NCBI GenBank assembly: GCA_964016885.1 | Contig: OZ024753.1 | Location: forward strand, 28,830,001 to 28,894,000 | DNA: 64,000 nt | Direction: 5' to 3' | Source: Eledone cirrhosa | Taxonomy: Eukaryota | Shown: one piece after another, positions 510 through 39,770 of the stretch | Numbering within the stretch: the first letter of the stretch is position 1 | Layout of the letters: every line of letters starts with the position of its first letter | Position numbers and translations under genes: made by a program | Notes under the pieces: generated by a model | What the model saw: the letters and a program-made list of their open reading frames with translations, nothing else | Told to the model about the DNA's origin: nothing | Databases searched by the model: none

Positions 510-1085
510 AAGTTACAACTCTTTACGATCTGAGTTTAAATCCTGCCATGGTTAGCTTTGCCTTTCATCTTTACGGGGTCAATAAAATAAAGTACCAGTA
601 ATGCACTGGGGTCAATTTAGTCGACTTTCCCCTTGCCCAAAATTGTTGGTCTTGTGGCTAAATCAGAAACCATTAATATCAACTAAGTACTGAGGTTGAT
701 TTAACCAGCTAAACCAACGTTTGCGGCCTTCTGGTCGATAAATTATAGTACCAGTAATTCACTGGAGTCGATCTAGTCGACTTTCCCTTTCCCTTTGGAG
801 TGCTGGCCTTGTGCCTATAGTAGAAACCAATATTAATATCAACTAAGTATTGAGGTTGATTTAATCAGCTAAACCCAGCCCTAATATTTGCAGCCTTGTG
901 GCCGATAAATTATAGTACCAGTAATTCACCGGGGTTGATTTAGCCAACTTTCCCTTTCCATTTGGTGTGCTGGCCTTGTGCCTATAGTAGAAACCAATAT
1001 TAATATCAACTAAGTATTGAGGTTGATCTAATCAGCTCGATCCAACCCTAACATTTCAGGCCTTATAGCTATGTTAAAAATCAAT
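510..1085 (+). mobile_element. SINE (Nin/Deu-like core), 3' part tandemly triplicated
   Basis: B-box-like GAGTTTAAATCC and core GCCTTTCATCTTTACGGGGTCAATAAAATAAAGTACCAG. The block AGTACCAGTAAT...TAGAAACC...AATATCAACTAAGTA repeats at ~591, ~747 and ~914. Confidence 0.75.
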
Positions 1086-2784: not shown

Positions 2785-3450
2785 TGGGTGCGGACGATAT
2801 TTGTTCGCAAGATTACTGTCTAGGAAAAAATAACACAGTAGTTTTATTTTTGAAGATTTATTTATCAAACTTGGGTCAGTTTGTCTGCATGACTTGTTCT
2901 TTCAATCTCACTCAATAAACCTGCCATTGGCTTTGATGACGGCCTCAAGGCGGCCTCGGAACCGGCTACAGGCCTTCGTCACTGTCCCCCGACTTAGGCC
3001 CTAAAGGCACTTGTGATCCTGGCCTTCAGATCGTCTTTCGTATTGCAGCTAGATCTGTTGGTGTCTCGTTCCACTGCGCCCCACACAAAGAAGTCGAGGG
3101 GGTTGCAGTCAGGCGAGCTGGGAGGCCAGATGTCAGGTGAAATGTGGTCGACGAAGTTTTCTGACAGCCAGGCTTGGGTCTTTCGGCTGGTATGGCAGGG
3201 CGCTGAGTCTTGCTGCCACATGTACGACCTACCTGCAACTACCTGGTCGATCCAGGGCTTTACTACCTCGCTCAGAACGCAGATGTAGCCATCGGTGTTC
3301 AGCTTGAGGCCTTCAGGGAAGAAGTGAGATGGCATGACATCACCTTGACTGCTGACAACACCTAAGACCAATGTTGTCGCATGACTCTGGGCACGTCTTT
3401 GGATGAGACAGCGAGCCACCTGTTGTTCTGGGAGTTGATCTTCTGGCCTT
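2784..3450 (-). mobile_element. 5'-truncated Tc1/mariner transposon of the DD37D (maT-type) family, frameshifted transposase
   Basis: WQQDSAPCH...WPPSSPDCNPLDFFVW has 37 residues between the 2nd and 3rd catalytic D. Other frames give KINSQNNRWLA and the C-terminus KACSRFRGRLEAVIKANGRFIE* (stop ~2908). TIR CTGGGTGCGGACGATATTTG at 2784 follows TA. Confidence 0.9.
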
Positions 3451-3642
3451 ATTTGTCCTCCCGGCGCGGATTCCAAGAAGAACTCCGTGTCTCTTCCACA
3501 AATTTGGAGGTTCAAAATTATTCATAATCAATTATTCTGAAAATAAATAATGGAAATATAGTCACTGTTTTTATGAAGACAAGAGTGACAGCGGAAGTAA
3601 AATAAATTTGCATAAAATTAGCAGTTGAAAATTGCAAACAAA

Positions 3643-11768: not shown

Positions 11769-14597
11769 AATTAATAAAAACAATGAAATAAAAACAAGTT
11801 CCTTATATTAAAAAATTCATCATTTTACGATCGTTTCTAGGATGTATATGTGTGTTGGTATGTATATCATATAGATCTAAGTAAAGATATTACAAATTAT
11901 CAGAGGAAATATACATACCTTCACATATACATGCTGTCTTCAGAAATGATGAGATTTGTTTATTGAAAAAAAACAACAAAAATTTAATATAAAAGGTCTG
12001 TTTGGGAACAGGTTTTGGATTGACCAATAGAAAAGTAGTTAGGTCAAGTTGATAGAATAGTGGTAGTAGAAATTTAATTTAGGGGTAGAGGAGTGCAGAC
12101 TTATGTTTTGAATGAAAAGAATACTTTGGGGATGAAAAGAGGTCAAGCCAGTGAAGGGTACACGAAAATTTGATGTTTTTAAAGAATAATGTTAAAAACG
12201 AAGGAAAATAAAATTGTATGGTAAGGGTATTAGTGAGAAATACCAATCTTATTTAAACCACAAGGAATCTAGATCTATAACAAGGAATTAAATTAATTGA
12301 TAGGTATACTTATAAGGATAAATTTATATTAATTCATATGAATGTGATAAATAAGAATTAGATGTTATTAAAGAGTGTTGTTAAAAAACGAAGGAAAGTA
12401 AAATTTTGGGATAAGGGTAGTAGTGAGAAATACCAATCTTATATAAACTACAAGGAATTTAGATTCATAACAGGACATTAAATTAATTTATAGGTATACT
12501 TTTAGGTATTAATTTTAGGAAAAGAGAGCTGTAAGAGGGAAATAAAATTATGAAGTTTTCTGTAGTAAAGTACTAATTATAGGTTAACTAAATAAAAAAA
12601 AAACTAATTATAATAATATGTAAAATATAAGTGTAAGATGTATATTGTATATTAATTAGATTTATAATATTTGAAGGTACTTCTAATTCTATGATTGCAA
12701 GATATAATTAATTCTTGTCGCTTATTTAATAGGATATCCTTAGATTTCATGATTTCAAAAAGTTCCTGGGAGCATAACCTACACTCGTATCTGCTATCTT
12801 GATAAGGGGTGGCCCTTTTGAACACACTCCAGGTCAGGTTGTAATCGATATTCTTCTTTCTATAATTATTGTTTCAGCCAAGGATGTTGTATTAGCTAAT
12901 GCGACATTTTAAAAACTATGTTTGTTGGTATTAAATCTTACTTTAAATTGGTTAGACGTAGCTCCTATATATGAATAAGTGGAGTCCTTAGTGCTAATTT
13001 TACATTTATAGACTGTTATTAATAAGACAATTTCCCTTTAATGGGCAATTTCTTTTGATTCTACAGTTACAATCATTCGTGAATATTATATCAGGGGAGT
13101 TAGTCAAATTTGGTGTGGAATTTACTCGACTTGTTATAGGTGAAGGAGATGGTGGATTGTTGCGGTTTATTTTAGTATTATGGTTGGTTTGATGTGTTGG
13201 TGGTATATTTGTGGGTTTTTTTTACATTTGTGGTTGTACGCACTTATATTTTGTTGTATATTTTTGGTAGTGGAGTAGGAAAATTTGAAAGTTGATCTAT
13301 TTAAAATTTGATGGTATTTATGGTTTGGCGGGAAGTTTTTCTCTAGGATAGTAAAAATTTTTTTAGGGATATTATCTTTAATTTGTAGATTAAATTGAGC
13401 ATTATACCAAGTAACCCATCTATTACGGTTTCGATATTGTTTTTTATATTTATACGATCTATCAGGATGTTTACTAAGAGAGTTACTATTAGTGAATTTA
13501 TTATATATAGGTTTAGTTAGATTAACTGATTTAGGTGTTTTAGTCTGATTACTAGGAATTTTGTTAGTAATATTGTTAACATATATTGGAGTATTAGGAT
13601 GAATGGTTTTTTTGAAAGTCATTATATTTTATGTGAGAAGAGGTGGAGAAATTAAGTTTTAGGTTGGTATTTTTGGGTGTAGTATGAGTGGCATTTAGGT
13701 GTGGCTTTTTCATTTGGTGTTTGTTGGTAATATTGGGTTGTATGTTTGAAGTATTAATGGTGCAAGGTATATAGACTAATTTGTTTTTGTGGCCGCTTCT
13801 ATCTAAAGCTTCGTTATAAAAGGGCGCGTTTTTATCGAATACATCCTAGTTAGATGAAAGGTTAGAGATTCTGAGAGAGATATTATATGCTAGGTTTTTA
13901 AGGATAGATCTAGGGTGATTGGATTGTGAGTGTATGTAATGTAAGTTTTTGTTAGGTTTATGATAAGGTTGGTAGATACCCGTAGATAGGTCTAAAGTTA
14001 TATCTAGGAAATTGACTATTTTACTGGTGTTTTCAAATGTAATAGTGAGATTGTAATAGTCTTTGAGGAAAGTTCTAATAAGTTTTTTATTTTTTTCAAT
14101 TTCTGATAGGCTAAGATTAGTCGAAAGAAGAAGACAGTCATCACGATATAAACCACCTTTAAGGTGGGGAAAAGATGAATTAATGTTAAATAGAAGAAAG
14201 AGGCCCACAAGATCAGTAAATTGGGTGGAATCACTAGAGCCCATAGTAATGTTGAAGAGATTACTATATGTATTTCTGGTCCAGTATTCCTTCTGAAATT
14301 CCAGTAGTGTTTGTCTAGCGTGCGTGATAATATTAATGTCATCGATAGTTAAGTTTGATCTATTTTTGGCAAATATCAAGGCTTTGTTCAGGAGTATGGG
14401 TGATATAGAGGAATAATAAGCATCTATAACAAATTGTAGAAATGAAGCAGATGATTTAATTCTAATATTAGTAAACCAGTTAATTACTTGGGATGTGTTT
14501 TCCCAGAGTGGTAAATTAACGTGTTTTCTTAATTATGGGATGATTCTATCTAAAAAAAAATGTTACTAATGATGCCAATATCGGACTTGGAAGTGCA
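11766..14597 (-). mobile_element. Decayed, 5'-truncated Penelope-like element (RT + GIY-YIG; Cys-rich linker as in the Neptune group)
   Basis: RT motifs ITMGS..S, GLYRDDCL, VNFLDITLDL, YIHSQSNHP (13846-14379). Linker CNCRIKRNCPLKGNCL (~13025-13075). Endonuclease VYKC...YIGATSNQFKVRF (~12910-13015). Multiple stops and frameshifts; ~190-bp-period duplication in the 3' UTR. Confidence 0.9.
11817..11952 (-). ncRNA. Type I hammerhead ribozyme motif in the Penelope 3' pLTR
   Basis: Minus strand: TCATCATTT-CTGAAGA-CAGCATGTATATGTG...CACATATACATCCTA-GAAA-CGATCG-TA-AAATGATGA; 9-bp stem I, palindromic stem III. Confidence 0.8.
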
Positions 14598-15254: not shown

Positions 15255-17900
15255 TTTCTCTTTCTCTTAATTTCGAGTATATTTTTTTGACCGGCCACCT
15301 TCCTGGTGGCAAGGTTGTAAAAGAAAAGAAATTGTCATCCCTTGAATCGCAAGAATGTTTTGCAAATTTTGAAGGTGCCAGTTAGCGCAGCCATTTGTAG
15401 ACTATGAATTAGGGAGCTGCGCTTTTTGTCCGCAAATCCAAGTTCAGTCATACTTTGGTCCAAGCGGGTTGGTATATAACCCGTAGCACCAATAATGATG
15501 GGTATGAAGCTAAAGGTGTATCTTGGATACTGGATCTGTAAACTCCTCATCAATGGTCCGTAGATGTCCTCCTTCTCCTGTATTTTTCTGACAACGTTTA
15601 CATCAAGTGGGCAGCTGATCTCCACAACAGAACACGTTTTCAATGTGTGTTCCCAAACTACAATATCAGGCCGGTTGTGCTTTAATTTGGTGGCAGTTTT
15701 TATTTTCAGGTTCCACCAGTATTCCTTAGTGCCATCTGTCTCAATATATTCTTCCTCGTTTGTTGTTAATTTTGTTTTCCGAAGTGCGTTCCAGATGGTT
15801 CTAGCTATCCCATCGTGTCTCATGGGGAGGTAGTAGCGAGATGACATTCTTTCGCAGCTGGCAACAATGTGGCTTACATCATCGATCTTTGTTTTACATA
15901 GCCTACATTTATTGTCAGCTGCTGGCCCTCCTCTTTTGTGCAGCAGATATTTGGTAGGGAGTTCTTGTTCCTGTATTGCATAGAGATATCCCTCAAGGTG
16001 TGATGTCATAAACTTGTCGGAACTCCATGCCAGGCTTTTTGAGTGGTTTATCCCCTCTATGGTCTGTGTTTTACGCCTCAAGTATCCATGCACAACTTTT
16101 TCTGTAAATTGGTCAATTTTTTTTATCTTGTTTGAACATTGAATAGGATCTTCCGATTTCTCTGGGTGAGAGATTTATATCAGGCTTTATTCCATATCTC
16201 TCCTCCAGATCAGTCGCTATTCTAATGATATTTCTTTTTTCATGGTCATAAACCTGGGCAAGATGGTTGCCAACCTTTTTCCTCTGTTGAAGGTGTTGCT
16301 TCAGTGTTACTATCCGGGTCTCATATGTTGTTAATATTGATTTTAGACCCCGGCCACCTTCCTTGCGTGAGAAGTATAGCCTATCCACATCACCATTGAT
16401 GTTAAAGTTCCCAGTAACACTGAGAAGTTTTCGAGTTCTAACATCCATCTCACTTAGTTCTTGCAATGACCAGTTGAGTAGGCCAAATGTTGGCGTTAGA
16501 ATTGGCACAGCATAAGTATTGTGGGCAATGTATTTGCTGTATGCTGACAGTTCTGATGACCATATTTTCTTTACTCTTCTGAGGTATTCAGTTCTGGTTC
16601 TCTCCTTATTTATGGGTCCATCATATCTGACATTCTCATCCTGTCCAAGATATCTGTAGTTGTCACCTGACTGCAGAGGTTGTATTGTCAGGCCGTTCAT
16701 CTCTAGATTTCTAGAGGAGGGCACAGCTCTTCCACGTTTTACTGCCAAATATGCACACTTGGACTCACCAAATTTCATTTTGATGTCGGTTGAAAATTGT
16801 GTAATGAGGTCCAATTGTTTCTTGATGTCATTGATATTTGGCCCATACAACTTCAGGTCATCAACAAAGAAAAGATGGGAGATACTTCTGGGCCCACTTC
16901 TTTGTCCACCTTGTTTCCTGAGTAGGTAAGATAGGGGATTCAGGGAGAGAACGAAGAGTAGCACTGACAAGCTATCACCCTGAAAGATGCCCTTCTGGTA
17001 ATGTATCTTATCAGTCTTAACCTGCTCCTTCTCACCTCTAAGGATCAAACTGGTGTACCAGTTCTTGGTCAGGCGTTCAACAGCAGCTACCAATGGTTGT
17101 GGGACTTTAGCTAACTGTAAAGCCTTAACAATCCACCCATGAGGTACACTATCAAATGCTTTTTGATAGTCCAGCCACACGACAGTCATGTTTCTGCGAT
17201 TCTTTGTTGTTTTTTCCTGAATCATTTTGTTAGTTAGTAGGTGATCTATGCAACCCCACACCTCCCTCTTTCCACCAGCTTGCTCAGGTGTTATGATGTT
17301 GTTGGTAGCACAGTGATCCTGTAAGAACAGGTTAAGGCACCCAGTATATAATTTATACATGATGTTTTGGCAGGCTATTGGGCGGTAATTTTTAGCAAGA
17401 GTGGTTTGGCTATTTTGGGGAATGAGGAGAGTAGAGGCAGTTGATAACCATCTGTATGAGATCTTGCCGATAGAAAGTGAAATTCTTCAACCAGTATCCT
17501 GTAATGAGGTCTGGGCCTGGCGATTTCCTATTCGACATTTTCTGTAGAGCTGTTTCCAGTATTGACCCATCTATGTCATATTGTTTTGTCTGGACATGTT
17601 GGCAGTAGTCCTGTTCCAGTTCTTTTAGCCAATTAGCTTGTCTGTTGAATCCGTCATCCGTTTCCCATACAGATCTCCAGTAGCTCTCAACCTGTTCTTT
17701 TGAAGGGGTGTCATTTACAGAGATTGAGCTTTTGCCACCGAAGCTGCGATAAACTGATTTAGGATCTCTGGCAAACAATCTATTTAGCACTTGTCGTCTA
17801 TGTGCTGTTGACTTATATTTTAGTCTTTCTGTTGTAGCTGTGAGTTGTTGTTTCAACTGGTGTAATTTGGAGTTCAAAGTTTTAAATTTTGTATCTCCAA
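15254..17900 (-). mobile_element. 5'-truncated R4/Dong-clade non-LTR retrotransposon (RT + restriction-like endonuclease), frameshifted
   Basis: KSPGPDLITGYWLK; WLDYQKAFDSVPH; GIFQGDSLS; HLFFVDDLKLYG; LYFSRKEGGRGL; CCHC CRLC..DDVSHIVASC; RHD; RPDIVV..VEISCP..KEDIY. Flanked by (TATG)n on both sides. Confidence 0.92.
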
Positions 17901-18004
17901 ATGTATGTATGTATGTATGTATGTATGTATGTATGTATGTATGTATGTATGTATGTATGTATGTATGTATGTATGTATGTATGTATGTATGTATGTATGT
18001 ATGT
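17901..18004. repeat. (ATGT)n microsatellite between two RLE LINEs
   Basis: Directly visible. Confidence 0.97.
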
Positions 18005-18687
18005 TCTTCTGGTTTTATAATTTCACAAAGTTTTACCAATAGAGAGAGTCGGTTTCTAACATAGACACAAGACTCTCTCATTGGAATTTACACGTCAACT
18101 AGGTAGATATGTATGCATGCATGTGTAGATATGGATGTTATTGTATGTGTGGTTGTGTATGTTTTGAGTTGTATGTGTGCATGTGTATATGCTTTGTATC
18201 TGTACATGTGTATATGCAGTTATTAGATGCAAAACTTTTGGAATGTTTTACATATTTTTACTGTTCCATTAATGGATTGTACTTGTAATTTCCTAACTAG
18301 TTGTGTTCTTTCTATTCCTGTGAAGCCTAGCTTCTCAAGATTTGTATTGAGGCAGTTACTAACCTACCCCAGTGCCCCAATAATCACAGGCATAAATCTG
18401 AAGGTGTAATCAGGGTGGAGTATCTGCAGATTTCTCATTAATTCTGCATAAATATTCTCCTTTTCACTAATCTTTGATATTATATTGGCATCTGCTGGGC
18501 AGCTAATTTCCACTACTGTGCATGTTTTCTTCTCCCTGTCCCATATCATAATATCTGGTCTGTTATGCCTGCATTTTATTAGGGTTTTTACTGGAACATT
18601 CCACCAGTACTCTTTCATATTATGTACATGGATGCCTTCCACATTGTTGTAGCTTTTAATGTGTTTATTATCGGCGCTATCTTTTTT
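18005..18687 (-). mobile_element. Second, divergent R4/Dong-type 3' fragment (RLE domain + 3' UTR)
   Basis: EYWWNVPVKT..HNRPDIMIWD..CTVVEISCPAD..KENIY..PVIIGALG, homologous to but clearly diverged from 15335-16093; (ATGT)n at both ends. Confidence 0.88.
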
Positions 18688-19407
18688 ATGTATGTATGTA
18701 TGTATTTATGTATGTATGTATGTATTAATTAATTTTTGTATTCTGAAACATCAAAATACAACAATTTTTTGGTCACTGGACTCGGGAATGTCACGACAGA
18801 AGTTTGTGGAAGTTACACAAATATTTTAGTATATTTTAGCAGAGCAATCCTTATTTATATTTTACATTTTACAATTACTTACATCTCAATATAACATGGC
18901 TAAAATTCAAATTTTGCAAAGAGAAGAAAACGGTCAAATGAACTAGATACATCTCACCACCACCACAATAACGTCTACACCCTCTCCCCACCATCACATG
19001 TCATTACCATACCATACCCTATCTAGACTAAAGTCATCGACCTGTTGTCAAACTCTCTACTCTCTGTTGAATGTGTATATATATATGTGTGTGTATGTAT
19101 ATGTGTGTATATACATCACTCAGTCAAACGACCAGATTTCAACCCCAACATCTACAACAACAACAACACCGGCACTAATGTTTACAGCAACAACAGCTTC
19201 AGAATGAACTGAAATGAACATTTACAACAACAACAGCGGCATCAAAACATAAAAAAAGGAAGGGAAAAAAAAACTCAAAATAACAAAACACACACACACA
19301 CACACGCACACAACACAACAACAACATCAACTGCCACCACCACCACCACCGCCACCGCCGCCGCCATCACCATCACCAGCGACCGGGCCTTAAGAAAACA
19401 ACTTTAA

Positions 19408-20032: not shown

Positions 20033-23000
20033 AGCGCGGGGACATAGAAATAATCGGGCTGGATGCCCGATCGCGCAGTTAAACCACTGGGAGTGAAGAA
20101 CCCCTAGCCCTTGTCAGGGCATTCTTCTAGGAGAAGGCATCTCAGGAAGCTGGGATAACTCCGATATAAAACCTGCGGCTCAGTAGTTACCGATGATGAT
20201 CTTTTCTTCTTTTCGGGTTATAGCTACTGTCGCTCAGAGAGTGGGATTGGCTCAGTGCACAGTCTTTCCTCACTTTAAAAATATTCGTCACGCACAGGCA
20301 TTGCACGAGTGCATTAATAATTATTAATAGTGTATTATTATTATTATTATTATTATTACTATTATTATTACTTTTTTTTTTTTTTTTTTTTTCCAATTCA
20401 ATGATGTTCCAGAACAATGTAAAAGAGATAATTGGCAATTTAGGCTCTGGAACAAAAAAGATCATTGGCAATAAGGGCAGGGGCCCCAAGTTATCACAGC
20501 CTGGGCCCGCTCGTCATCGTGCCATTGTAATAGAGCCAAACAGGGCATTTAGTCTTGGCTGCTGGAACGTACGGACGCTGCTTGACAGGGATTCCTTGGA
20601 GCGTCCTGAACGAAGGACCGCTCTAGTTGCAAAGGAGCTTCGACGTTACGATCTTGACATCGTGGCTTTATCTGAGACGAGGTTAGCTGGAGATGGTCAT
20701 CTTACGGAATTTTGTGGAGAATATACATTCTTCTGGAAAGGAAGAGATGAAGGAACCAGAAGAGAGGCTGGGGTAGGATTTGCTGTTAAGACTGTACTTG
20801 TGAATAAATTAGAAGAATTCCCAGTAGGGATTAGTGAGCGTCTTATGTCCATGAGAGTTCCGCTGGACAAGGGAAGATATGCTACCCTGGTGAGTGTGTA
20901 TGCTTCAACTATGAATTCTGTCGATGAAGAAAAACTGTCCTTTTACCATGCCTTGACAGGTGTTCTAAGAAATATCCCTCAGGCAGACAAAGTCATCGTG
21001 CTTGGTGACTTTAATGCTAGAGTGGGTAGGGATTTTAACACATGGAATGTAATCGGAAGGCATGGGGTGGGAAAGTGTAACAGCAATGGTATGCTCCTGC
21101 TGCAGATGTGTGAGGAGCTGGATCTGTGTGTTACCAACACCATGTTCCAACAAAAGAACAAATTCAAGACCACATGGATGCATCCTGCATCTAAGGAATG
21201 GCATCTTTTGGACTACGTCCTAGTCAGGATGCGTGACAGACAGGATGTGCAGTGTGTTCGTGTTCTTCGTGGAGCTGAGTGCTGGACGGACCACCGCCTG
21301 GTACGCGCAAAAGTGAAACTAATCACCAAACGTAAAATCCGGGCTCCTGGTGTTGCCCTGCCCAAAAGATTGAATGCTGCTCGTCTTAAGGATAAAAATG
21401 TGAAGAGGACATTGGAAGAAGAGATGCAGGCTGCAGATCTTGGTGAGGATTGGCCGACCCTTAAAAAGTCGGTTTATGATGTAGGCAGGCGTGTTCTGGG
21501 ATTGGTGCAGAGAAAACATCAGGACTGGTTTAATGAGAATGATGTACATATAGAAGACTTGTTGGCTGATAAGAGGCGTGCTCTGTCACGTTACTTGACG
21601 GCAAAACCACAGGAGAGGAATACGTTGCATGAGGAGCTCAGGGATGTAAAATCACGTGTTAGGCGGAGTCTTTCTCAGATGAAGGATCAGTGGTGGAGTG
21701 AGAAGGCTGGTGAGATACAAACTGCGTCTGATTCCAATAACGCAAAGCTGTTGTACAGTCTCTTGCGTGAGGTTTATGGACCGTCTTCTTCTCTGGTGAC
21801 ACCGCTTCGCAGCAAGGATGGCAAAGAACTTCTTCGTGACTCACAGGGAATTCTACGAAGGTGGCGAGAGCACTTTGATGATCTTTTGAATCAGCCGTCT
21901 GTCGTCAGTGAAGATTTCCTCAATCTCATTCCGGAAAGTCCTGTGAAAGTAGCTCTCGCAGAACCTCCGACGCTTGTGGAGGTTGCAGTGGCTATTTCGA
22001 AGCTGAACAGTGGAAGATCTCGAGGTATGGATGGCATACATGCTGAGCTCCTACAATATGGTGGTGAGAGACTCCTGCAACATCTTCACTCTTTGTTTGG
22101 AAGGATATGGGCTAATGAATCCGTACCTGAGGACTGGAGAGATGCAGTAATGGTGGTCTTGTACAAGGGAAAGGGTAACAGGAATGATTGTGGGAACTAC
22201 AGAGGTATATCATTGCTTTCTGTCGTAGGGAAGGTTTTATGTAGGGTGCTTCTGGACCGTCTGCTGACACACATTGCAGATTGTGTTCTTCCTGAAAGTC
22301 AATCTGGTTTTCGTGCTGGACGCGGCACTACTGATATGATCTTCTCAGCTAGACAGCTCCAGGAGAAGTGCACTGAACAAGGCTTGGATCTGTATCAGGT
22401 TTTTGTCGATCTGACAAAGGCTTTCGATACTGTCAACAGATGCATTATGGAAGGTTCTCCAGAAACTTGGTTGCCCTGATAAGTTCCTTGCTTTAGTTAG
22501 GTCTTTCCATGACGACATGAAGGCTTGGGTTAATGTCGGAGGTAACATGTCGGAGCCTATCTCAGTAAAAAATGGAGTGAAACAGGGGAATATTCCAGCA
22601 CCGACCCTGTTTGCCATATACTTTGCAATGGTTTTCTGTATTGCATTCAGGAATTGCGAGCATGGTGTTTACATCCGATATCGAACCTCAGGCAGCATAT
22701 TTAACATCAGGCGCTTTGCTGCGAAGACAAAAGTATTTACATCAATCATAAGAGACCTCTTGTATGCAGATGATTGCGATCTTGTAGCGCACACAGAGAG
22801 TGATATGCAGCACATTTTGAATGCATTTTCTGACGCTTGCACTGCCCTGGGTTTGATTGTCAGTCTCAAGAAAACCGTCGTCATGTACCAACCTGCCCCT
22901 GGTAAGCAGTACACTGAACCAAACATCTATGTGTATGGCAAACGACTTGGAGTGGTTGATCAGTTTGTCTACCTGGGAAGCACTGTCAATCGATACGGCA

Positions 23001-24139
23001 ACCTTGACGGTGAAATCTCACTTAGGATTAGGAAAGCAAGTGATGCTTTCGGAAAGCTAGAAAGGCGACTCTGGGGTCGGCGAGACATATGCAGGAGGAC
23101 AAAGGTAAAGGTGTACAGGGCATGTGTACTCTCTTGTCTTCTTTATGCCTGCGAGACCTGGGTCACATATCGACACCACCTTAAGCAATTGGAGCGTTTC
23201 CATCAGATGTGTCTCAGACGGATCCATGGCGTTCACTGGAAGGACCACATCAGTGATGTCGAGATTTTGGAAAGCTCTATGTGTGACAGTATAGAAGCTC
23301 TTGTGCTTAAGCAACGACTCCGTTGGAGTGCTCACCTTGCCAGGATGAAGGATTCTAGAATACCAAAAACAACTCTTCTATGGAGAGTTGGTTAAAGGAA
23401 AACGATCGCCACATAAACCAAAAAAGAGGTATAAGGATTCCTTGAAAGCCTCTCTGAAAGACGCTAACATCTCTGCTGATACATGGGAAAATATTGCTGC
23501 TGATCGTAATAAATGGAGAAAGACTGTATATGAGGGAAAAGTTGCCTTTGAGGCATCTCGAATCGCACACGAGAAAGTAAAGCGGGATGTGAGGAAGGGC
23601 ATTGCTGTTGCACTTCCAGACGGCGAGGGTCCTCCTATGGTGCTGACATGCAGCGTCTGTGCGAGACTCTGCCTAAGCAAAGCTGGACTCGAAAGTCATC
23701 TTCGCAGTCATAAAGTAAGACCAGTGGTTGACTACCAGGCTGCTGTTGGAGATGCTACTCATCATGCTTGCCAAACATGTGGTAGAGAATGTAAATCAGC
23801 AGGAGGGCTCAAGCGACATGCAAAAGTACACGAACTCCAACCGACTATTCCCAGTGAATGTTTTGGTTGCCGACTCTGTGCAAGACATTTTAGATCATTG
23901 GCTGGGCTAAAAAGCCACATTCGATCGCAGCACTGTTAGTTGCTATCGTGTGTGTGTGTGTGTGTAGATATGCTTATGTGCGTGCGTGTGTGTGTATATA
24001 TATATGAATATGTATATCATTATTGTTGTTGTCGTTATTATTATTATTGCTTATTATTATTATTATTATTATTATTATTGTTATTAATGTATGTATATGT
24101 GTATGTATGTGTGTATGTATGTATGTATGTATGTATGTG

Positions 24140-32815: not shown

Positions 32816-33121
32816 ATATATATATGAGAGAGAGAGAATGGGGTTCTCCCCAAAATGTATACACACTTCAACGCCATTGTAATAGATGTTCATACATTTT
32901 TGGGGGACACCTTGTGAGTGTATATTTAAATATATATATATACAGAGATATCCACGGTAAGTTGTGGGGTCTATTCTGCATGAAGAACTCAATGTAATCC
33001 ATATGTTGAAAATGTTGTAGGTTAAAATAAATCCCGGAAAACAATAAAACATTAAAAGGAAAACAGTCATGATATAAGTTAAAACAATGAAATAAAAAAT
33101 TAAGTCATTAAAGATATACTT

Positions 33122-33260
33122 CACTGCTTTACGATCGTTTCTAGGTGATAATAATACATAGCTGTACTTTGTTATTGATCTATGTAAGGTTAGTTACAAA
33201 ATATCAGATAAAGAGAATATTTACTTACATGCATATCACCAGCTGTTTTCAAAAGCAATA
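33122..33260 (-). ncRNA. Type I hammerhead motif with U3-A8 core, homologous to 11817-11952
   Basis: Minus strand: TATTGCTT-TTGAAAA-CAGCTGGTGATA...TATCACCTA-GAAA-CGATCG-TA-AAGCAGTG; flanking AAAACAATGAAATAAAAA shared with the 11.8 kb Penelope end. Confidence 0.7.
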
Positions 33261-34264: not shown

Positions 34265-37200
34265 AGGCAACGAATTGGCAGAGTAGTTAGAACGTCAGAT
34301 AGAATGGCAGAGTAGTTAGAACGTCAGATAGAATGGCAGAGTAGTTAGAACGTCAGATAGAATGGCAGAGTAGTTAGAACGTCAGATAGAATGGCAGAGT
34401 AGTTAGAACGTCAGATAGAATGGCAGAGTAGTTAGAACGTCAGATAGAATGGCAGAGTAGTTAGAACGTCAGATAGAATGGCAGAGTAGTTAGAACGTCA
34501 GATAGAATGGCAGAGTAGTTAGAACGTCAGATAGAATGGCAGAGTAGTTAGAACGTCAGATAGAATGGCAGAGTAGTTAGAACGTCAGATAGAATGGTAG
34601 AGTAGTTAGAACGTCAGATAGAATGGCAGAGTAGTTAGAACGTCAGATAGAATGGTAGAGTAGTTAGAACGTCAGATAGAATGGCAGAGTAGTTAGAACG
34701 TCAGATAGAATGGCAGAGTAGTTAGAACGTCAGATAGAATGGTAGAGTAGTTAGAACGTCAGATAGAATGGTAGAGTAGTTAGAACGTCAGATAGAATGG
34801 TAGAGTAGTTAGAACGTCAGATAGAATGGCAGAGTAGTTAGAACGTCAGATAGAATGGTAGAGTAGTTAGAACGTCAGATAGAATGGTAGAGTAGTTAGA
34901 ACATCAGATAGAATGGTAGAGTAGTTAGAACGTCAGATAGAATGGTAGAGTAGTTAGAACGTCAGATAGAATGGTAGAGTAGTTAGAACGTCAGATAGAA
35001 TGGCAGAGTAGTTAGAACGTCAGATAGAATGGTAGAGTAGTTAGAACGTCAGATAGAATGGTAGAGTAGTTAGAACGTCAGATAGAATGGTAGAGTAGTT
35101 AGAACATCAGATAGAATGGTAGAGTAGTTAGAACGTCAGATAGAATGGCAGAGTAGTTAGAACGTCAGATAGAATGGCAGAGTAGTTAGAACGTCAGATA
35201 GAATGGTAGAGTAGTTAGAACGTCAGATAGAATGGCAGAGTAGTTAGAACGTCAGATAGAATGGTAGAGTAGTTAGAACGTCAGATAGAATGGCAGAGTA
35301 GTTAGAACGTCAGATAGAATGGTAGAGTAGTTAGAACGTCAGATAGAATGGTAGAGTAGTTAGAACGTCAGATAGAATGGCAGAGTAGTTAGAACGTCAG
35401 ATAGAATGGTAGAGTAGTTAGAACGTCAGATAGAATGGTAGAGTAGTTAGAACGTCAGATAGAATGGCAGAGTAGTTAGAACGTCAGATAGAATGGTAGA
35501 GTAGTTAGAACGTCAGATAGAATGGTAGAGTAGTTAGAACGTCAGATAGAATGGTAGAGTAGTTAGAACGTCAGATAGAATGGCAGAGTAGTTAGAACGT
35601 CAGATAGAATGGCAGAGTAGTTAGAACGTCAGATAGAATGGCAGAGTAGTTAGAACGTCAGATAGAATGGCAGAGTAGTTAGAACGTCAGATAGAATGGC
35701 AGAGTAGTTAGAACGTCAGATAGAATGGCAGAGTAGTTAGAACGTCAGATAGAATGGCAGAGTAGTTAGAACGTCAGATAGAATGGTAGAGTAGTTAGAA
35801 CGTCAGATAGAATGGCAGAGTAGTTAGAACGTCAGATAGAATGGCAGAGTAGTTAGAACGTCAGATAGAATGGCAGAGTAGTTAGAACGTCAGATAGAAT
35901 GGCAGAGTAGTTAGAACGTCAGATAGAATGGCAGAGTAGTTAGAACGTCAGATAGAATGGTAGAGTAGTTAGAACGTCAGATAGAATGGCAGAGTAGTTA
36001 GAACGTCAGATAGAATGGCAGAGTAGTTAGAACGTCAGATAGAATGGCAGAGTAGTTAGAACGTCAGATAGAATGGTAGAGTAGTTAGAACGTCAGATAG
36101 AATGGCAGAGTAGTTAGAACGTCAGATAGAATGGCAGAGTAGTTAGAACGTCAGATAGAATGGCAGAGTAGTTAGAACGTCAGATAGAATGGCAGAGTAG
36201 TTAGAACGTCAGATAGAATGGCAGAGTAGTTAGAACGTCAGATAGAATGGTAGAGTAGTTAGAACGTCAGATAGAATGGCAGAGTAGTTAGAACGTCAGA
36301 TAGAATGGTAGAGTAGTTAGAACGTCAGATAGAATGGCAGAGTAGTTAGAACGTCAGATAGAATGGCAGAGTAGTTAGAACGTCAGATAGAATGGCAGAG
36401 TAGTTAGAACGTCAGATAGAATGGCAGAGTAGTTAGAACGTCAGATAGAATGGCAGAGTAGTTAGAACGTCAGATAGAATGGTAGAGTAGTTAGAACGTC
36501 AGATAGAATGGCAGAGTAGTTAGAACGTCAGATAGAATGGTAGAGTAGTTAGAACGTCAGATAGAATGGCAGAGTAGTTAGAACGTCAGATAGAATGGCA
36601 GAGTAGTTAGAACGTCAGATAGAATGGTAGAGTAGTTAGAACGTCAGATAGAATGGTAGAGTAGTTAGAACGTCAGATAGAATGGTAGAGTAGTTAGAAC
36701 GTCAGATAGAATGGCAGAGTAGTTAGAACGTCAGATAGAATGGTAGAGTAGTTAGAACGTCAGATAGAATGGTAGAGTAGTTAGAACATCAGATAGAATG
36801 GTAGAGTAGTTAGAACGTCAGATAGAATGGTAGAGTAGTTAGAACGTCAGATAGAATGGTAGAGTAGTTAGAACGTCAGATAGAATGGCAGAGTAGTTAG
36901 AACGTCAGATAGAATGGTAGAGTAGTTAGAACGTCAGATAGAATGGTAGAGTAGTTAGAACGTCAGATAGAATGGTAGAGTAGTTAGAACATCAGATAGA
37001 ATGGTAGAGTAGTTAGAACATCAGATAGAATGGCAGAGTAGTTAGAACGTCAGATAGAATGGCAGAGTAGTTAGAACGTCAGATAGAATGGTAGAGTAGT
37101 TAGAACGTCAGATAGAATGGCAGAGTAGTTAGAACGTCAGATAGAATGGTAGAGTAGTTAGAACGTCAGATAGAATGGCAGAGTAGTTAGAACGTCAGAT

Positions 37201-39770
37201 AGAATGGTAGAGTAGTTAGAACGTCAGATAGAATGGTAGAGTAGTTAGAACGTCAGATAGAATGGCAGAGTAGTTAGAACGTCAGATAGAATGGTAGAGT
37301 AGTTAGAACGTCAGATAGAATGGTAGAGTAGTTAGAACGTCAGATAGAATGGCAGAGTAGTTAGAACGTCAGATAGAATGGTAGAGTAGTTAGAACGTCA
37401 GATAGAATGGTAGAGTAGTTAGAACGTCAGATAGAATGGTAGAGTAGTTAGAACGTCAGATAGAATGGCAGAGTAGTTAGAACGTCAGATAGAATGGCAG
37501 AGTAGTTAGAACGTCAGATAGAATGGCAGAGTAGTTAGAACGTCAGATAGAATGGCAGAGTAGTTAGAACGTCAGATAGAATGGCAGAGTAGTTAGAACG
37601 TCAGATAGAATGGCAGAGTAGTTAGAACGTCAGATAGAATGGCAGAGTAGTTAGAACGTCAGATAGAATGGTAGAGTAGTTAGAACGTCAGATAGAATGG
37701 CAGAGTAGTTAGAACGTCAGATAGAATGGCAGAGTAGTTAGAACGTCAGATAGAATGGCAGAGTAGTTAGAACGTCAGATAGAATGGCAGAGTAGTTAGA
37801 ACGTCAGATAGAATGGCAGAGTAGTTAGAACGTCAGATAGAATGGTAGAGTAGTTAGAACGTCAGATAGAATGGCAGAGTAGTTAGAACGTCAGATAGAA
37901 TGGCAGAGTAGTTAGAACGTCAGATAGAATGGCAGAGTAGTTAGAACGTCAGATAGAATGGTAGAGTAGTTAGAACGTCAGATAGAATGGCAGAGTAGTT
38001 AGAACGTCAGATAGAATGGCAGAGTAGTTAGAACGTCAGATAGAATGGCAGAGTAGTTAGAACGTCAGATAGAATGGCAGAGTAGTTAGAACGTCAGATA
38101 GAATGGCAGAGTAGTTAGAACGTCAGATAGAATGGTAGAGTAGTTAGAACGTCAGATAGAATGGCAGAGTAGTTAGAACGTCAGATAGAATGGTAGAGTA
38201 GTTAGAACGTCAGATAGAATGGCAGAGTAGTTAGAACGTCAGATAGAATGGCAGAGTAGTTAGAACGTCAGATAGAATGGCAGAGTAGTTAGAACGTCAG
38301 ATAGAATGGTAGAGTAGTTAGAACGTCAGATAGAATGGCAGAGTAGTTAGAACGTCAGATAGAATGGCAGAGTAGTTAGAACGTCAGATAGAATGGCAGA
38401 GTAGTTAGAACGTCAGATAGAATGGCAGAGTAGTTAGAACGTCAGATAGAATGGTAGAGTAGTTAGAACGTCAGATAGAATGGCAGAGTAGTTAGAACGT
38501 CAGATAGAATGGCAGAGTAGTTAGAACGTCAGATAGAATGGCAGAGTAGTTAGAACGTCAGATAGAATGGCAGAGTAGTTAGAACGTCAGATAGAATGGT
38601 AGAGTAGTTAGAACATCAGATAGAATGGCAGAGTAGTTAGAACGTCAGATATAATGGCAGAGTAGTTAGAACGTCAGATAGAATGGCAGAGTAGTTAGAA
38701 CGTCAGATAGAATGGCAGAGTAGTTAGAACGTCAGATATAATGGTAGAGTAGTTAGAACGTCAGATAGAATGGCAGAGTAGTTAGAACGTCAGATAGAAT
38801 GGCAGAGTAGTTAGAACGTCAGATAGAATGGCAGAGTAGTTAGAACGTCAGATAGAATGGTAGAGTAGTTAGAACGTCAGATAGAATGGCAGAGTAGTTA
38901 GAACGTCAGATAGAATGGCAGAGTAGTTAGAACGTCAGATAGAATGGCAGAGTAGTTAGAACGTCAGATAGAATGGCAGAGTAGTTAGAACGTCAGATAG
39001 AATGGCAGAGTAGTTAGAACGTCAGATAGAATGGTAGAGTAGTTAGAACGTCAGATAGAATGGCAGAGTAGTTAGAACGTCAGATAGAATGGCAGAGTAG
39101 TTAGAACGTCAGATAGAATGGCAGAGTAGTTAGAACGTCAGATAGAATGGCAGAGTAGTTAGAACGTCAGATAGAATGGCAGAGTAGTTAGAACATCAGA
39201 TAGAATGGCAGAGTAGTTAGAACATCAGATATAATGGCAGAGTAGTTAGAACGTCAGATAGAATGGCAGAGTAGTTAGAACATCAGATAGAATGGCAGAG
39301 TAGTTAGAACGTCAGATATAATGGTAGAGTAGTTAGAACGTCAGATAGAATGGCAGAGTAGTTAGAACGTCAGATAGAATGGCAGAGTAGTTAGAACGTC
39401 AGATAGAATGGCAGAGTAGTTAGAACGTCAGATAGAATGGTAGAGTAGTTAGAACGTCAGATAGAATGCTTTATGGTATTCCTTTTGACTCTCTGTTCTC
39501 TGAGTTCAAATCCTGCTGAGGTCAACTCTGCCTTTCATCCAATCATGGTTGACAAAGAAAAGTACCAGTCAAGTACTGGGGTCGATTCTTCCTCTATATC
39601 TCTTTCTCACTTCCTTTCTCTCACTCTCTCTATCCTTCTCTGGAAGAAATCTACTGTATTCAGGCCTGGAGAGGAGATGGGCTCTGGCAGGTTTAAAAAG
39701 AAGAAAAATGTCCTTGAAATGTTATGTCAATATGGCACCCCTATGACTCCCTCAGGAGTTATGGGTCCAC
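34265..39770 (+). mobile_element. Family B SINE whose head has expanded into a 5.2-kb minisatellite; 3' extension shared with 62160-62490
   Basis: AGGCAACGAAT-[array]-TGCTTTATGGTATT...GAGTTCAAATCCTGC...GCCTTTCATCC...AAGTACCAGTC. Confidence 0.88.
34276..39466. repeat. 29-bp minisatellite, 179 copies, no indels
   Basis: Unit TGG(C/T)AGAGTAGTTAGAACGTCAGATAGAA; 5191 bp = 179 x 29. Confidence 0.98.

What the first reader, a model, noticed from the sequence alone, without database searches (positions are those of the whole stretch)
33122..33260. Compensatory C3-G8 to U3-A8 switch between two homologous hammerheads
Seen: relative to 11817-11952 the core changes CUGAAGA to UUGAAAA, exactly the two tertiary-paired positions. 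Stem I (TCATCATTT/AAATGATGA vs TATTGCTT/AAGCAGTG) and stem II (ATGTATATGTG/CACATATACAT vs GGTGATA/TATCACC) change sequence but keep pairing, while CCTAGAAACGATCGTA is identical. Inference: selection for a functional non-canonical ribozyme that CUGANGA-based searches would miss. Two independent transitions in one dead copy remain possible.
Basis: partly seen in the sequence, partly recalled or inferred. Interest (0 to 1): 0.72.

Follow-up and report, generated by a model that had tools for sequence, protein, structure and literature searches.

The report
Long-armed Penelope hammerhead, U3-A8 core
This is a hammerhead RNA motif, predicted to cut itself slowly and only as a pair, at the front of a jumping gene with over a thousand copies in this animal genome; the two-letter core swap is real and family-wide but already in print, and the less ordinary part is a roughly 100-base arm that may hide a splice signal.

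Summary
UUGAAAA is the state of a whole family: U3 in 68 of 68 and A8 in 72 of 73 copies picked by sequence outside the ribozyme. Genome-wide, this context shows 623 U3 copies, 3 C3 copies and no C3-G8. A sister subfamily keeps U3-A8 but changes the free position N7; four related families keep C3-G8. The motif is a type I hammerhead with a palindromic helix III in the pseudo-LTR of Hydra-clade Penelope-like elements. U3-A8 is published for natural hammerheads (2011) and for Penelope hammerheads (2014, same seven letters), so the headline is not new. Not found in what I read: a 94-107-nt stem-loop II with kept C.A and C.C mismatches; U3 facing A17, predicted to trap the cut site; 5' ends of copies piling up at the start of stem I; and a splice-donor-like hexamer inside stem II in 5 of 6 families. 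Cutting and splicing are untested; no RNA run was listed. The scan noted U3-A8 Penelope hammerheads before, in this genome and in others.

The parts
32943..33260 (-). 5'-truncated orphan copy of the family-B pseudo-LTR (hammerhead plus long tail) between (TA)n tracts; no ORF
   Evidence: sister copies end at the same two 3' points
33253..33260 (-). Stem I, 5' strand; the copy begins here, at the 5'-junction hot spot of the family
33246..33252 (-). Core strand 3-9 with U3 (33252) and A8 (33247)
33142..33245 (-). Stem-loop II, 104 nt here (107 in most B copies); opens with C.A, A-U, G-C, C.C, then a long helix
33223..33228 (-). Splice-donor-like hexamer GTAAGT inside the 5' arm of stem II (use as a donor is untested)
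33131..33141 (-). G12-A13-A14 and the 8-nt palindrome that can form helix III between two molecules
   Evidence: self-duplex -10.0 kcal/mol, no stable hairpin
33129..33130 (-). Predicted cut site, after A17 (33130)
   Evidence: hammerhead numbering; cleavage untested
33122..33129 (-). Stem I, 3' strand
11817..11952 (-). Family-A hammerhead with C3-G8 and the same architecture (99-nt stem-loop II in most copies, donor-like GTATGT at 11918-11913)
12690..14532 (-). Broken RT and C-terminal GIY-YIG coding region of the family-A Hydra-clade element upstream of hammerhead A (YRDD near 14148, CxCx5C near 13071, YIG near 12971, CxxC near 12783, CxH near 12700)

Best explanation
The stretch is a type I hammerhead motif with a family-wide U3-A8 core in the terminal repeat of a Hydra-clade Penelope-like retrotransposon, and it likely works as a slow self-cleaving ribozyme that would cut after GUA only when two copies pair through their palindrome. 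Shown: the fold is conserved by compensatory changes across six related families, U3-A8 is fixed in subfamilies B1 and B2, and the host is a Hydra-clade element. Inferred: transcription starts at the first bases of stem I; two RNAs form an 8-bp helix III; U3-A8 stands in for C3-G8 to place residue 8 in the active site; cutting would free a 5' leader of about 133 nt. Because U3 can also pair with A17 at the cut site, the B form is predicted to be slower than its C3-G8 sisters. Uncut RNA appears to be a common template for new insertions in both forms. The copy in this window is a truncated, non-coding leftover.
For: U3 68 of 68 and A8 72 of 73 in copies picked by the downstream tail (104 anchored copies, 36 too short to reach position 3). 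623 U3 against 3 non-U3 copies, all three C3/A8 (98 of the 100 listed U3 copies have A8). B2 differs from B1 at 20 of 147 non-core positions and at N7, yet 33 of 33 complete cores are U3-A8. In coded runs X1 and X3, N7 is the only core position with a listed variant at the 2% threshold. Stem II pair 10.5-11.5 reads A-U, G-C, U-A, U-A, G-C, C-G in families A, E, B1, B2, F, C; stem I pairs 3 and 4 swap between A/E and B. Rough chance that two core changes hit 3 and 8 and keep a Watson-Crick pair: 0.007. Palindrome duplex -10.0 kcal/mol. Hydra motifs in proteins of families A and B. Natural U3-A8 and prior in vitro activity are reported in PMC3088659. An unrelated repeat with all 44 matches 100% identical also has U3-A8. 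4 of 66 mapped 5' junctions fall at the cut site against 0.54 expected.
Against: No cleavage data. One switch event only in this lineage, and the endonuclease tree did not resolve the family order. U3-A17 pairing probability is 0.85-0.90 in monomer folds, and the cleavage-ready state lies 4.3-5.4 kcal/mol above the ensemble in three B representatives and 8.3 in the window's copy, against 3.0-4.7 in three A sequences. The analogous C3-G17 pair is the proposed trap in minimal hammerheads (PMC3884650). In a full double-mutant scan of a type III hammerhead only the C3G/G8C swap rescued activity (PMC9901934). G10.1-C11.1, highly conserved in published PLE hammerheads, is replaced by C.A, and no loop-loop contact is evident. 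19 of 66 B and 14 of 31 A junctions start at stem I with the cut site intact. The cut-site excess is small, uncorrected and confounded by TA microhomology. Families C, E and F were found through core-like motifs, so the core-invariance p values are inflated. RNAalifold on a MAFFT alignment recovered stem I only.
Confidence: 0.62

Rival explanations
1. The fold is kept, but family B no longer cuts. U3-A8 with A17 locks the cut site into stem I, and the long hairpin is selected as a promoter, splicing or protein-binding structure.
For: Predicted U3-A17 trap, -1.6 kcal/mol even in the constrained state. Uncut 5' ends are common. Hammerhead mutants did not affect insertion in vitro for the anole element (PMC11167929). 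Naiads thrive without a canonical hammerhead.
Against: Both 3 and 8 changed in the pair-keeping way, which a merely structural hairpin does not need. The other nine core positions are unchanged between B1 and B2 while N7 changed, though at 14% divergence that alone is not significant. A second, very young U3-A8 family exists.
Confidence: 0.25
2. The working core in family B is not UUGAAAA but the second CUGAUGA-like heptamer ten bases downstream, so the U3-A8 switch is an alignment illusion.
For: B2 has a perfect CUGAUGA there (24 of 37 rows) and CUGACGA in 6, varying at the N7-equivalent base. MAFFT aligned it with the family-C core.
Against: In that register neither stem I (G.A, A.A or G.A) nor stem II (U.C then G-C or A.C) forms. 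B1 has G at the A6-equivalent position, a change that keeps a stem II pair (A-U, G-U, G-C series). The four bases after UUGAAAA match those after CUGAAGA in families A and E.
Confidence: 0.05
3. Two chance transitions in one dead copy.
For: The window's copy is a truncated orphan with a few private changes.
Against: 623 against 3 copies, none C3-G8; 68 of 68 and 72 of 73 in an unbiased sample.
Confidence: 0.01

Closest known systems
U3-A8 minimal hammerheads of Cercyon Penelope-like elements, Schistosoma mansoni (Cervera and de la Pena 2014, PMC4209133; read main text parts 1-2 of 4, and searched supplementary file 2; file 1 could not be searched)
   Same: Type I hammerhead in a pseudo-LTR, U3-A8 in place of C3-G8 (about 1,300 hits there), dimer-type helix III. 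Their listed S. mansoni(4) motif has the same UUGAAAA letters.
   Different: Their helix II is 7-8 bp with a short loop and G10.1-C11.1 after an extra base; here stem-loop II spans 94-107 nt and opens with C.A. As I parse the PDF text, S. mansoni(4) has U17; here it is A17, which can pair with U3.
Hammerheads of Hydra-clade PLEs (Craig et al. 2021, PMC8557442; read passages, sections 3 and 11, supplement parts 1-2 of 59)
   Same: Same host clade; hammerhead near the 3' end; mismatch at 10.1/11.1 is common (15 of 26 Hydra rows by my reading of File S2); C.A occurs in PLE-X1_cBra.
   Different: All 26 Hydra rows have C3-G8 and loop II of at most 10 nt; none has a stem-loop II near 100 nt. Their descriptor may not have allowed U3-A8.
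Natural core-variant hammerheads (Perreault et al. 2011, PMC3088659; read passages and section 8)
   Same: Reports C3-G8 covarying to U3-A8 in several natural examples, and a mismatch at 10.1-11.1 (U.U).
   Different: Not described there, in the parts read, as a PLE family or with a long stem II.
Poseidon hammerhead of Anolis (Frangieh et al. 2024, PMC11167929; read parts 1-2 of 4)
   Same: PLE hammerhead in which the 3-8 pair was tested; cutting needed the element's protein and was not needed for insertion; two RT start sites give a tail.
   Different: C3-G8 core, compact, overlaps the start codon; here the start codon lies about 400 nt downstream of the core.
Penelope of Drosophila virilis (Schostak et al. 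2008, PMC2377424, passages; Cervera 2014)
   Same: Internal promoter in the pseudo-LTR with a conserved splice donor 46 nt after the start; here a donor-like hexamer lies 31 nt after the inferred start.
   Different: There the intron ends at the 5' side of helix I; here it would begin inside stem II and contain the cut site. Splicing is not shown here.

Membership tests
Hammerhead ribozyme, type I | Core U4 G5 A6 N7 R8 A9, G12 A13 A14, A15.1-U16.1, H17 | tested here: met
   position 3 is U and position 8 is A
Hammerhead ribozyme, type I | Watson-Crick pair between positions 3 and 8 | tested here: met
   U-A in B1 (69 of 73 rows; 3 of the others were fetched as exceptions) and B2 (28 of 28); C-G in A (62 of 63) and E (26 of 27). 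Sequence only, one switch event.
Hammerhead ribozyme, type I | Stems I and II flank the core, open ends at stem I | tested here: met
   compensatory pairs across families in a hand-anchored table; stem I also found by RNAalifold
Hammerhead ribozyme, type I | Paired 10.1-11.1, usually G-C | tested here: not met
   C.A in A, E, B1, B2; U-A in C; C or U facing A in F. Mismatches here have precedent.
Hammerhead ribozyme, type I | Tertiary contact between loop II and stem I | tested here: inconclusive
   loop II is too far out for the usual contact; a conserved C.C (or C.U) mismatch sits at pair 4 of stem II in A, E, B1, B2, role unknown
Hammerhead ribozyme, type I | Site-specific self-cleavage after H17 | not testable with these tools
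   indirect only: 4 of 66 5' junctions at the cut site against 0.54 expected
Hammerhead ribozyme, type I | Match to an Rfam hammerhead model | tested here: inconclusive
   none among 150 listed of 244 matches at E<=1; 94 not shown
Dimer-type PLE hammerhead (min-HHR) | Short palindromic helix III, stable only between two copies | tested here: met
   self-duplex -10.0 kcal/mol, hairpin 0.0; some family-C copies swap the central AT to TA
Dimer-type PLE hammerhead (min-HHR) | Located in the pseudo-LTR of a PLE | tested here: met
   tandem units of about 4.5-4.9 kb with RT and endonuclease between two hammerheads (L094, L153)
Dimer-type PLE hammerhead (min-HHR) | Extra base after A9, then G10.1-C11.1 and a short helix II | tested here: not met
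Hydra clade of PLEs | C-terminal GIY-YIG endonuclease, no CCHH | tested here: met
   weak Pfam PF01541 hit, E 8.6e-4, below the curated cut-off, in 1 of 3 proteins scanned; sequence read by eye
Hydra clade of PLEs | DKT, RWK-like motif, CxCX5C linker, CxxC and CxH around the conserved E and N | tested here: met
   DKT, CxCx5C, CxxC and CxH in families A and B; RWR rather than RWK in B, N-terminus of A not seen
Hydra clade of PLEs | Insertion into (TA)n | tested here: met
Hydra clade of PLEs | Placement in the RT phylogeny | not tested
   no tree with reference PLEs was built; elements here are longer than the <3 kb given for Hydra

The most novel reading that the evidence does not exclude
The hammerhead is the first thing transcribed and acts as a three-way switch. 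The RNA starts at stem I; the long stem II buries the 5' splice donor of a leader intron that contains the cut site and the RT start points; so each transcript is either spliced into messenger RNA, kept whole as the copying template, or cut. U3-A8 opposite A17 is a tuned-down setting of that switch.
Probability: 0.2. Interest if true: 0.72.

Novelty: new variant of a known kind. Interest (0 to 1): 0.36.

Why it matters
The core swap alone adds one more example to a published variant. What the locus offers is a natural test set: six related families in one genome with C3-G8 or U3-A8, A17 in all, and thousands of copies. It lets one ask directly whether U3-A8 opposite A17 slows cleavage, and what Penelope hammerheads are for, which is still open. 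If the buried donor is used, a ribozyme competing with splicing would help explain why these elements keep their introns. Searches for genomic hammerheads should allow U3-A8, a 10.1/11.1 mismatch and a stem-loop II of over 100 nt.

Tried and rejected
Rfam scan swamped by (AT)n matches to microRNA models. RNA search: no RNA holder listed, so expression, start site, splicing and cutting could not be examined. The three runs listed are contigs of one sample of unrecorded kind and may not be independent of the assembly; no joint matching an intron was seen in them. No spliced genomic copy among 99 B, 65 A and 26 E donor contexts read (low power, full tandem copies are rare). No acceptor conserved between families was found; the CAG before the start codon in L094 is CAC in four other copies. 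Copies ending 3' at the cut site: no excess, 150 matches against 325 for the control, and the 30 read were point mutants, family C or unrelated. Endonuclease tree unresolved, with B represented by one unlabeled row. The family-E fold was cut wrongly and is dropped; the family-C and F tallies include misparsed rows. Naiad identity rejected: the endonuclease is C-terminal. Not held, so not read: Przybilski and Hammann 2007, Nelson and Uhlenbeck 2008, Lunse et al. 2017; these bear directly on U3-A8 rates and on PLE variants. Literature searches behind 'not found in print': (terms: hammerhead with Penelope-like, core variant, U3-A8, C3U/G8A/G17, dimer, long stem II, intron/splice site/pLTR, C3-G8/compensatory, octopus; the last was a guess, the organism was not determined).

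Full report
Observation. Both motifs lie on the minus strand as described. Copy B at 33260-33122 reads stem I, core UUGAAAA, a 104-nt stem-loop II, GAAA, an 8-nt palindrome, the triplet GUA and the second stem I strand. Copy A at 11952-11817 has the same layout with CUGAAGA. The shared 15-mer occurs 7,619 times in the 3.0-Gb genome G000 against 3 for the reversed control. Rfam listed no hammerhead among the 150 matches shown of 244.

Not decay. In the family-B context with N7 fixed as A, 623 copies have U3 (98 of the 100 listed have A8, one G, one T) and 3 have another base, all C3 with A8. No C3-G8 copy exists in that context. To avoid selecting on the core I took copies by a downstream tail motif (1,105 matches; the first 100 places fetched). 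Of 104 anchored copies, 68 reach position 3 and all have U; 72 of 73 have A8. A sister subfamily, B2, differs at 20 of 147 non-core positions and has C at N7, yet 33 of 33 complete cores among its best hits are U3-A8 (the query held the core). In contigs of coded runs X1 and X3, N7 was the only core position with a listed variant at the 2% threshold (one sample, kind unrecorded, possibly not independent).

Relatives. Four related families share the long stem II and keep C3-G8: A (62 of 63 rows), E (26 of 27), and the older F and C. By parsimony U3-A8 arose once, in B; the endonuclease tree did not resolve the order. A rough chance that two core changes hit positions 3 and 8 and keep the pair is 0.007. 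Nine other core positions are invariant across the six families against 13 of 118 non-core columns, but C, E and F were found through core-like motifs, so that contrast is inflated. A table anchored by hand on the core shows compensatory change in both stems, a C.A mismatch at 10.1/11.1 and a C.C or C.U mismatch at the fourth pair in A, E, B1 and B2.

Host. [quoted passage not shown] DKT, RWR, CxCx5C, CxxC/CxH, lack of CCHH and (TA)n targets match the Hydra clade as defined in PMC8557442 section 11; no reference tree was built. The window holds a broken family-A element upstream of copy A. Copy B is a 318-nt orphan.

Mechanism. The palindrome forms no hairpin but an 8-bp duplex of -10.0 kcal/mol between two molecules, the dimer mode described for PLE hammerheads, which cut slowly in vitro. 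That residue 8 contributes through its 2'-OH, so that the base need only pair with position 3, is recalled knowledge and comes from no call. Against fast cutting: in B, U3 pairs with A17 with probability 0.85-0.90 in monomer folds, and the cleavage-ready state costs 4.3-5.4 kcal/mol in three representatives and 8.3 in the window's copy, against 3.0-4.7 in A. This mirrors the proposed C3-G17 trap (PMC3884650, passages). A double-mutant scan of a type III hammerhead saw rescue only for the C3G/G8C swap (PMC9901934, passages), whereas PMC3088659 cites prior in vitro activity for covarying pairs. Activity is therefore likely but context-dependent and untested here.

Where the RNA starts. Of 104 B copies, 66 have a 5' junction within reach; 19 fall in the 23 nt around the start of stem I against 2.4-4.1 expected, with the mode at position -7. 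In family A, 14 of 31 fall there, 6 exactly at -7, and 5 contigs of X3 leave the reference at -7. Position -7 is the A of TCATT in B2, E and part of A, which resembles an initiator (consensus recalled). RT stalling at the hairpin base or microhomology with AT-rich targets could also explain the peak. Either way, RNA with an intact cut site was often copied, as found in vitro for the anole element (PMC11167929). Four junctions sit at the cut site against 0.54 expected (p 0.002, uncorrected, confounded by TA microhomology).

Donor-like hexamer. One GTRNGT hexamer lies at offsets 21-25 in stem II of A, B1, B2, E and F, with four different middles, and none in C. A, B and E are close kin, so F is the only fairly independent case (chance about 0.012 for a 7-nt window, noticed after the fact). 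D. virilis Penelope has a conserved donor 46 nt after its start (PMC2377424, passages); here it would be 31 nt. No conserved acceptor, no spliced copy and no RNA run were found, so this stays a hypothesis.

Novelty. U3-A8 is in print for natural hammerheads and for Schistosoma PLEs, about 1,300 hits, including the same seven letters. The 26 Hydra rows of Craig et al. File S2 all have C3-G8 and loops of at most 10 nt; 15 have a 10.1/11.1 mismatch by my reading. I did not find the long stem-loop II, the U3/A17 combination or the buried donor in the papers read (searches), but three key papers were not held and one supplementary file of PMC4209133 could not be searched. Other papers opened: bioRxiv 10.64898/2026.07.22.740005 part 1 of 5, PMC7151607, PMC6765202 and PMC6155905 as passages. 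Earlier notes of this scan describe U3-A8 Penelope hammerheads in this and other genomes; I saw them after reaching my reading.

Verdict. Real, family-wide, probably functional but slow; a new variant of a known kind; interest 0.36.

Noticed in passing
L263:851-1441 and L259-L288 (G000 C1); diverged copy at L066 near 2850: An unrelated repeat with a unit of about 591 nt carries a second U3-A8 hammerhead (core UUGAUAA, G10.1-C11.1, 10-nt palindromic helix III, C17). 875 candidates; all 44 matches listed are 100% identical, so it is very young and retrozyme-like.
   Followed up: partly
window 33242-33236 (-); B2 loci L349-L378: A second core-like heptamer sits inside the 5' arm of stem II: CUGGUGA in B1, CUGAUGA or CUGACGA in B2. 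No stems fit it.
   Followed up: yes
window 11964-11959 (-); B and E loci: AATAAA lies 14-21 nt upstream of the core in families A, B and E, too close to position -7 for a normal poly(A) cut.
   Followed up: no
window 33084-33072 and 32953-32943 (-): Copies end 3' at two points about 130 nt apart, a longer version of the PLE tail that marks two RT start sites in the anole element.
   Followed up: partly
L067, L072, L073, L074, L078, L086: Family-A copies repeatedly join at position -7 to the AT-rich end of a common short repeat; a related repeat lies at window 577-1037.
   Followed up: no
L108:5100-5250, L095 near 6560, L153 near 830, L263 unit: A short motif of the form CTCCC..GGT(T/C)GAGC, or its second half, precedes the start codon in several Hydra-like families and also occurs in the 591-nt repeat.
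   Followed up: no
L108:5251-7735 and upstream: A near-intact 844-aa Hydra-like ORF of another family with a compact C3-G8 hammerhead upstream, a GTATGT hexamer about 20 nt before that core and CAG just before the start codon.
   Followed up: no
flanks of many loci, e.g. L008, L011, L033, L062, L096, L106, L136: Many other compact CUGANGA hammerheads with different palindromic helix III sequences turn up in random flanks.
   Followed up: no
window 34276-39468: Array of 179 copies of a 29-nt unit, 98% matches, 1 kb from the finding.
   Followed up: no
window 15335-18705 (-), 20224-23939 (+), 2994-3521 (-): Other mobile-element remains read by eye from the ORF list: an RT with a restriction-like endonuclease, an AP-endonuclease RT element, and a DDE transposase fragment; names recalled, not searched.
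   Followed up: no
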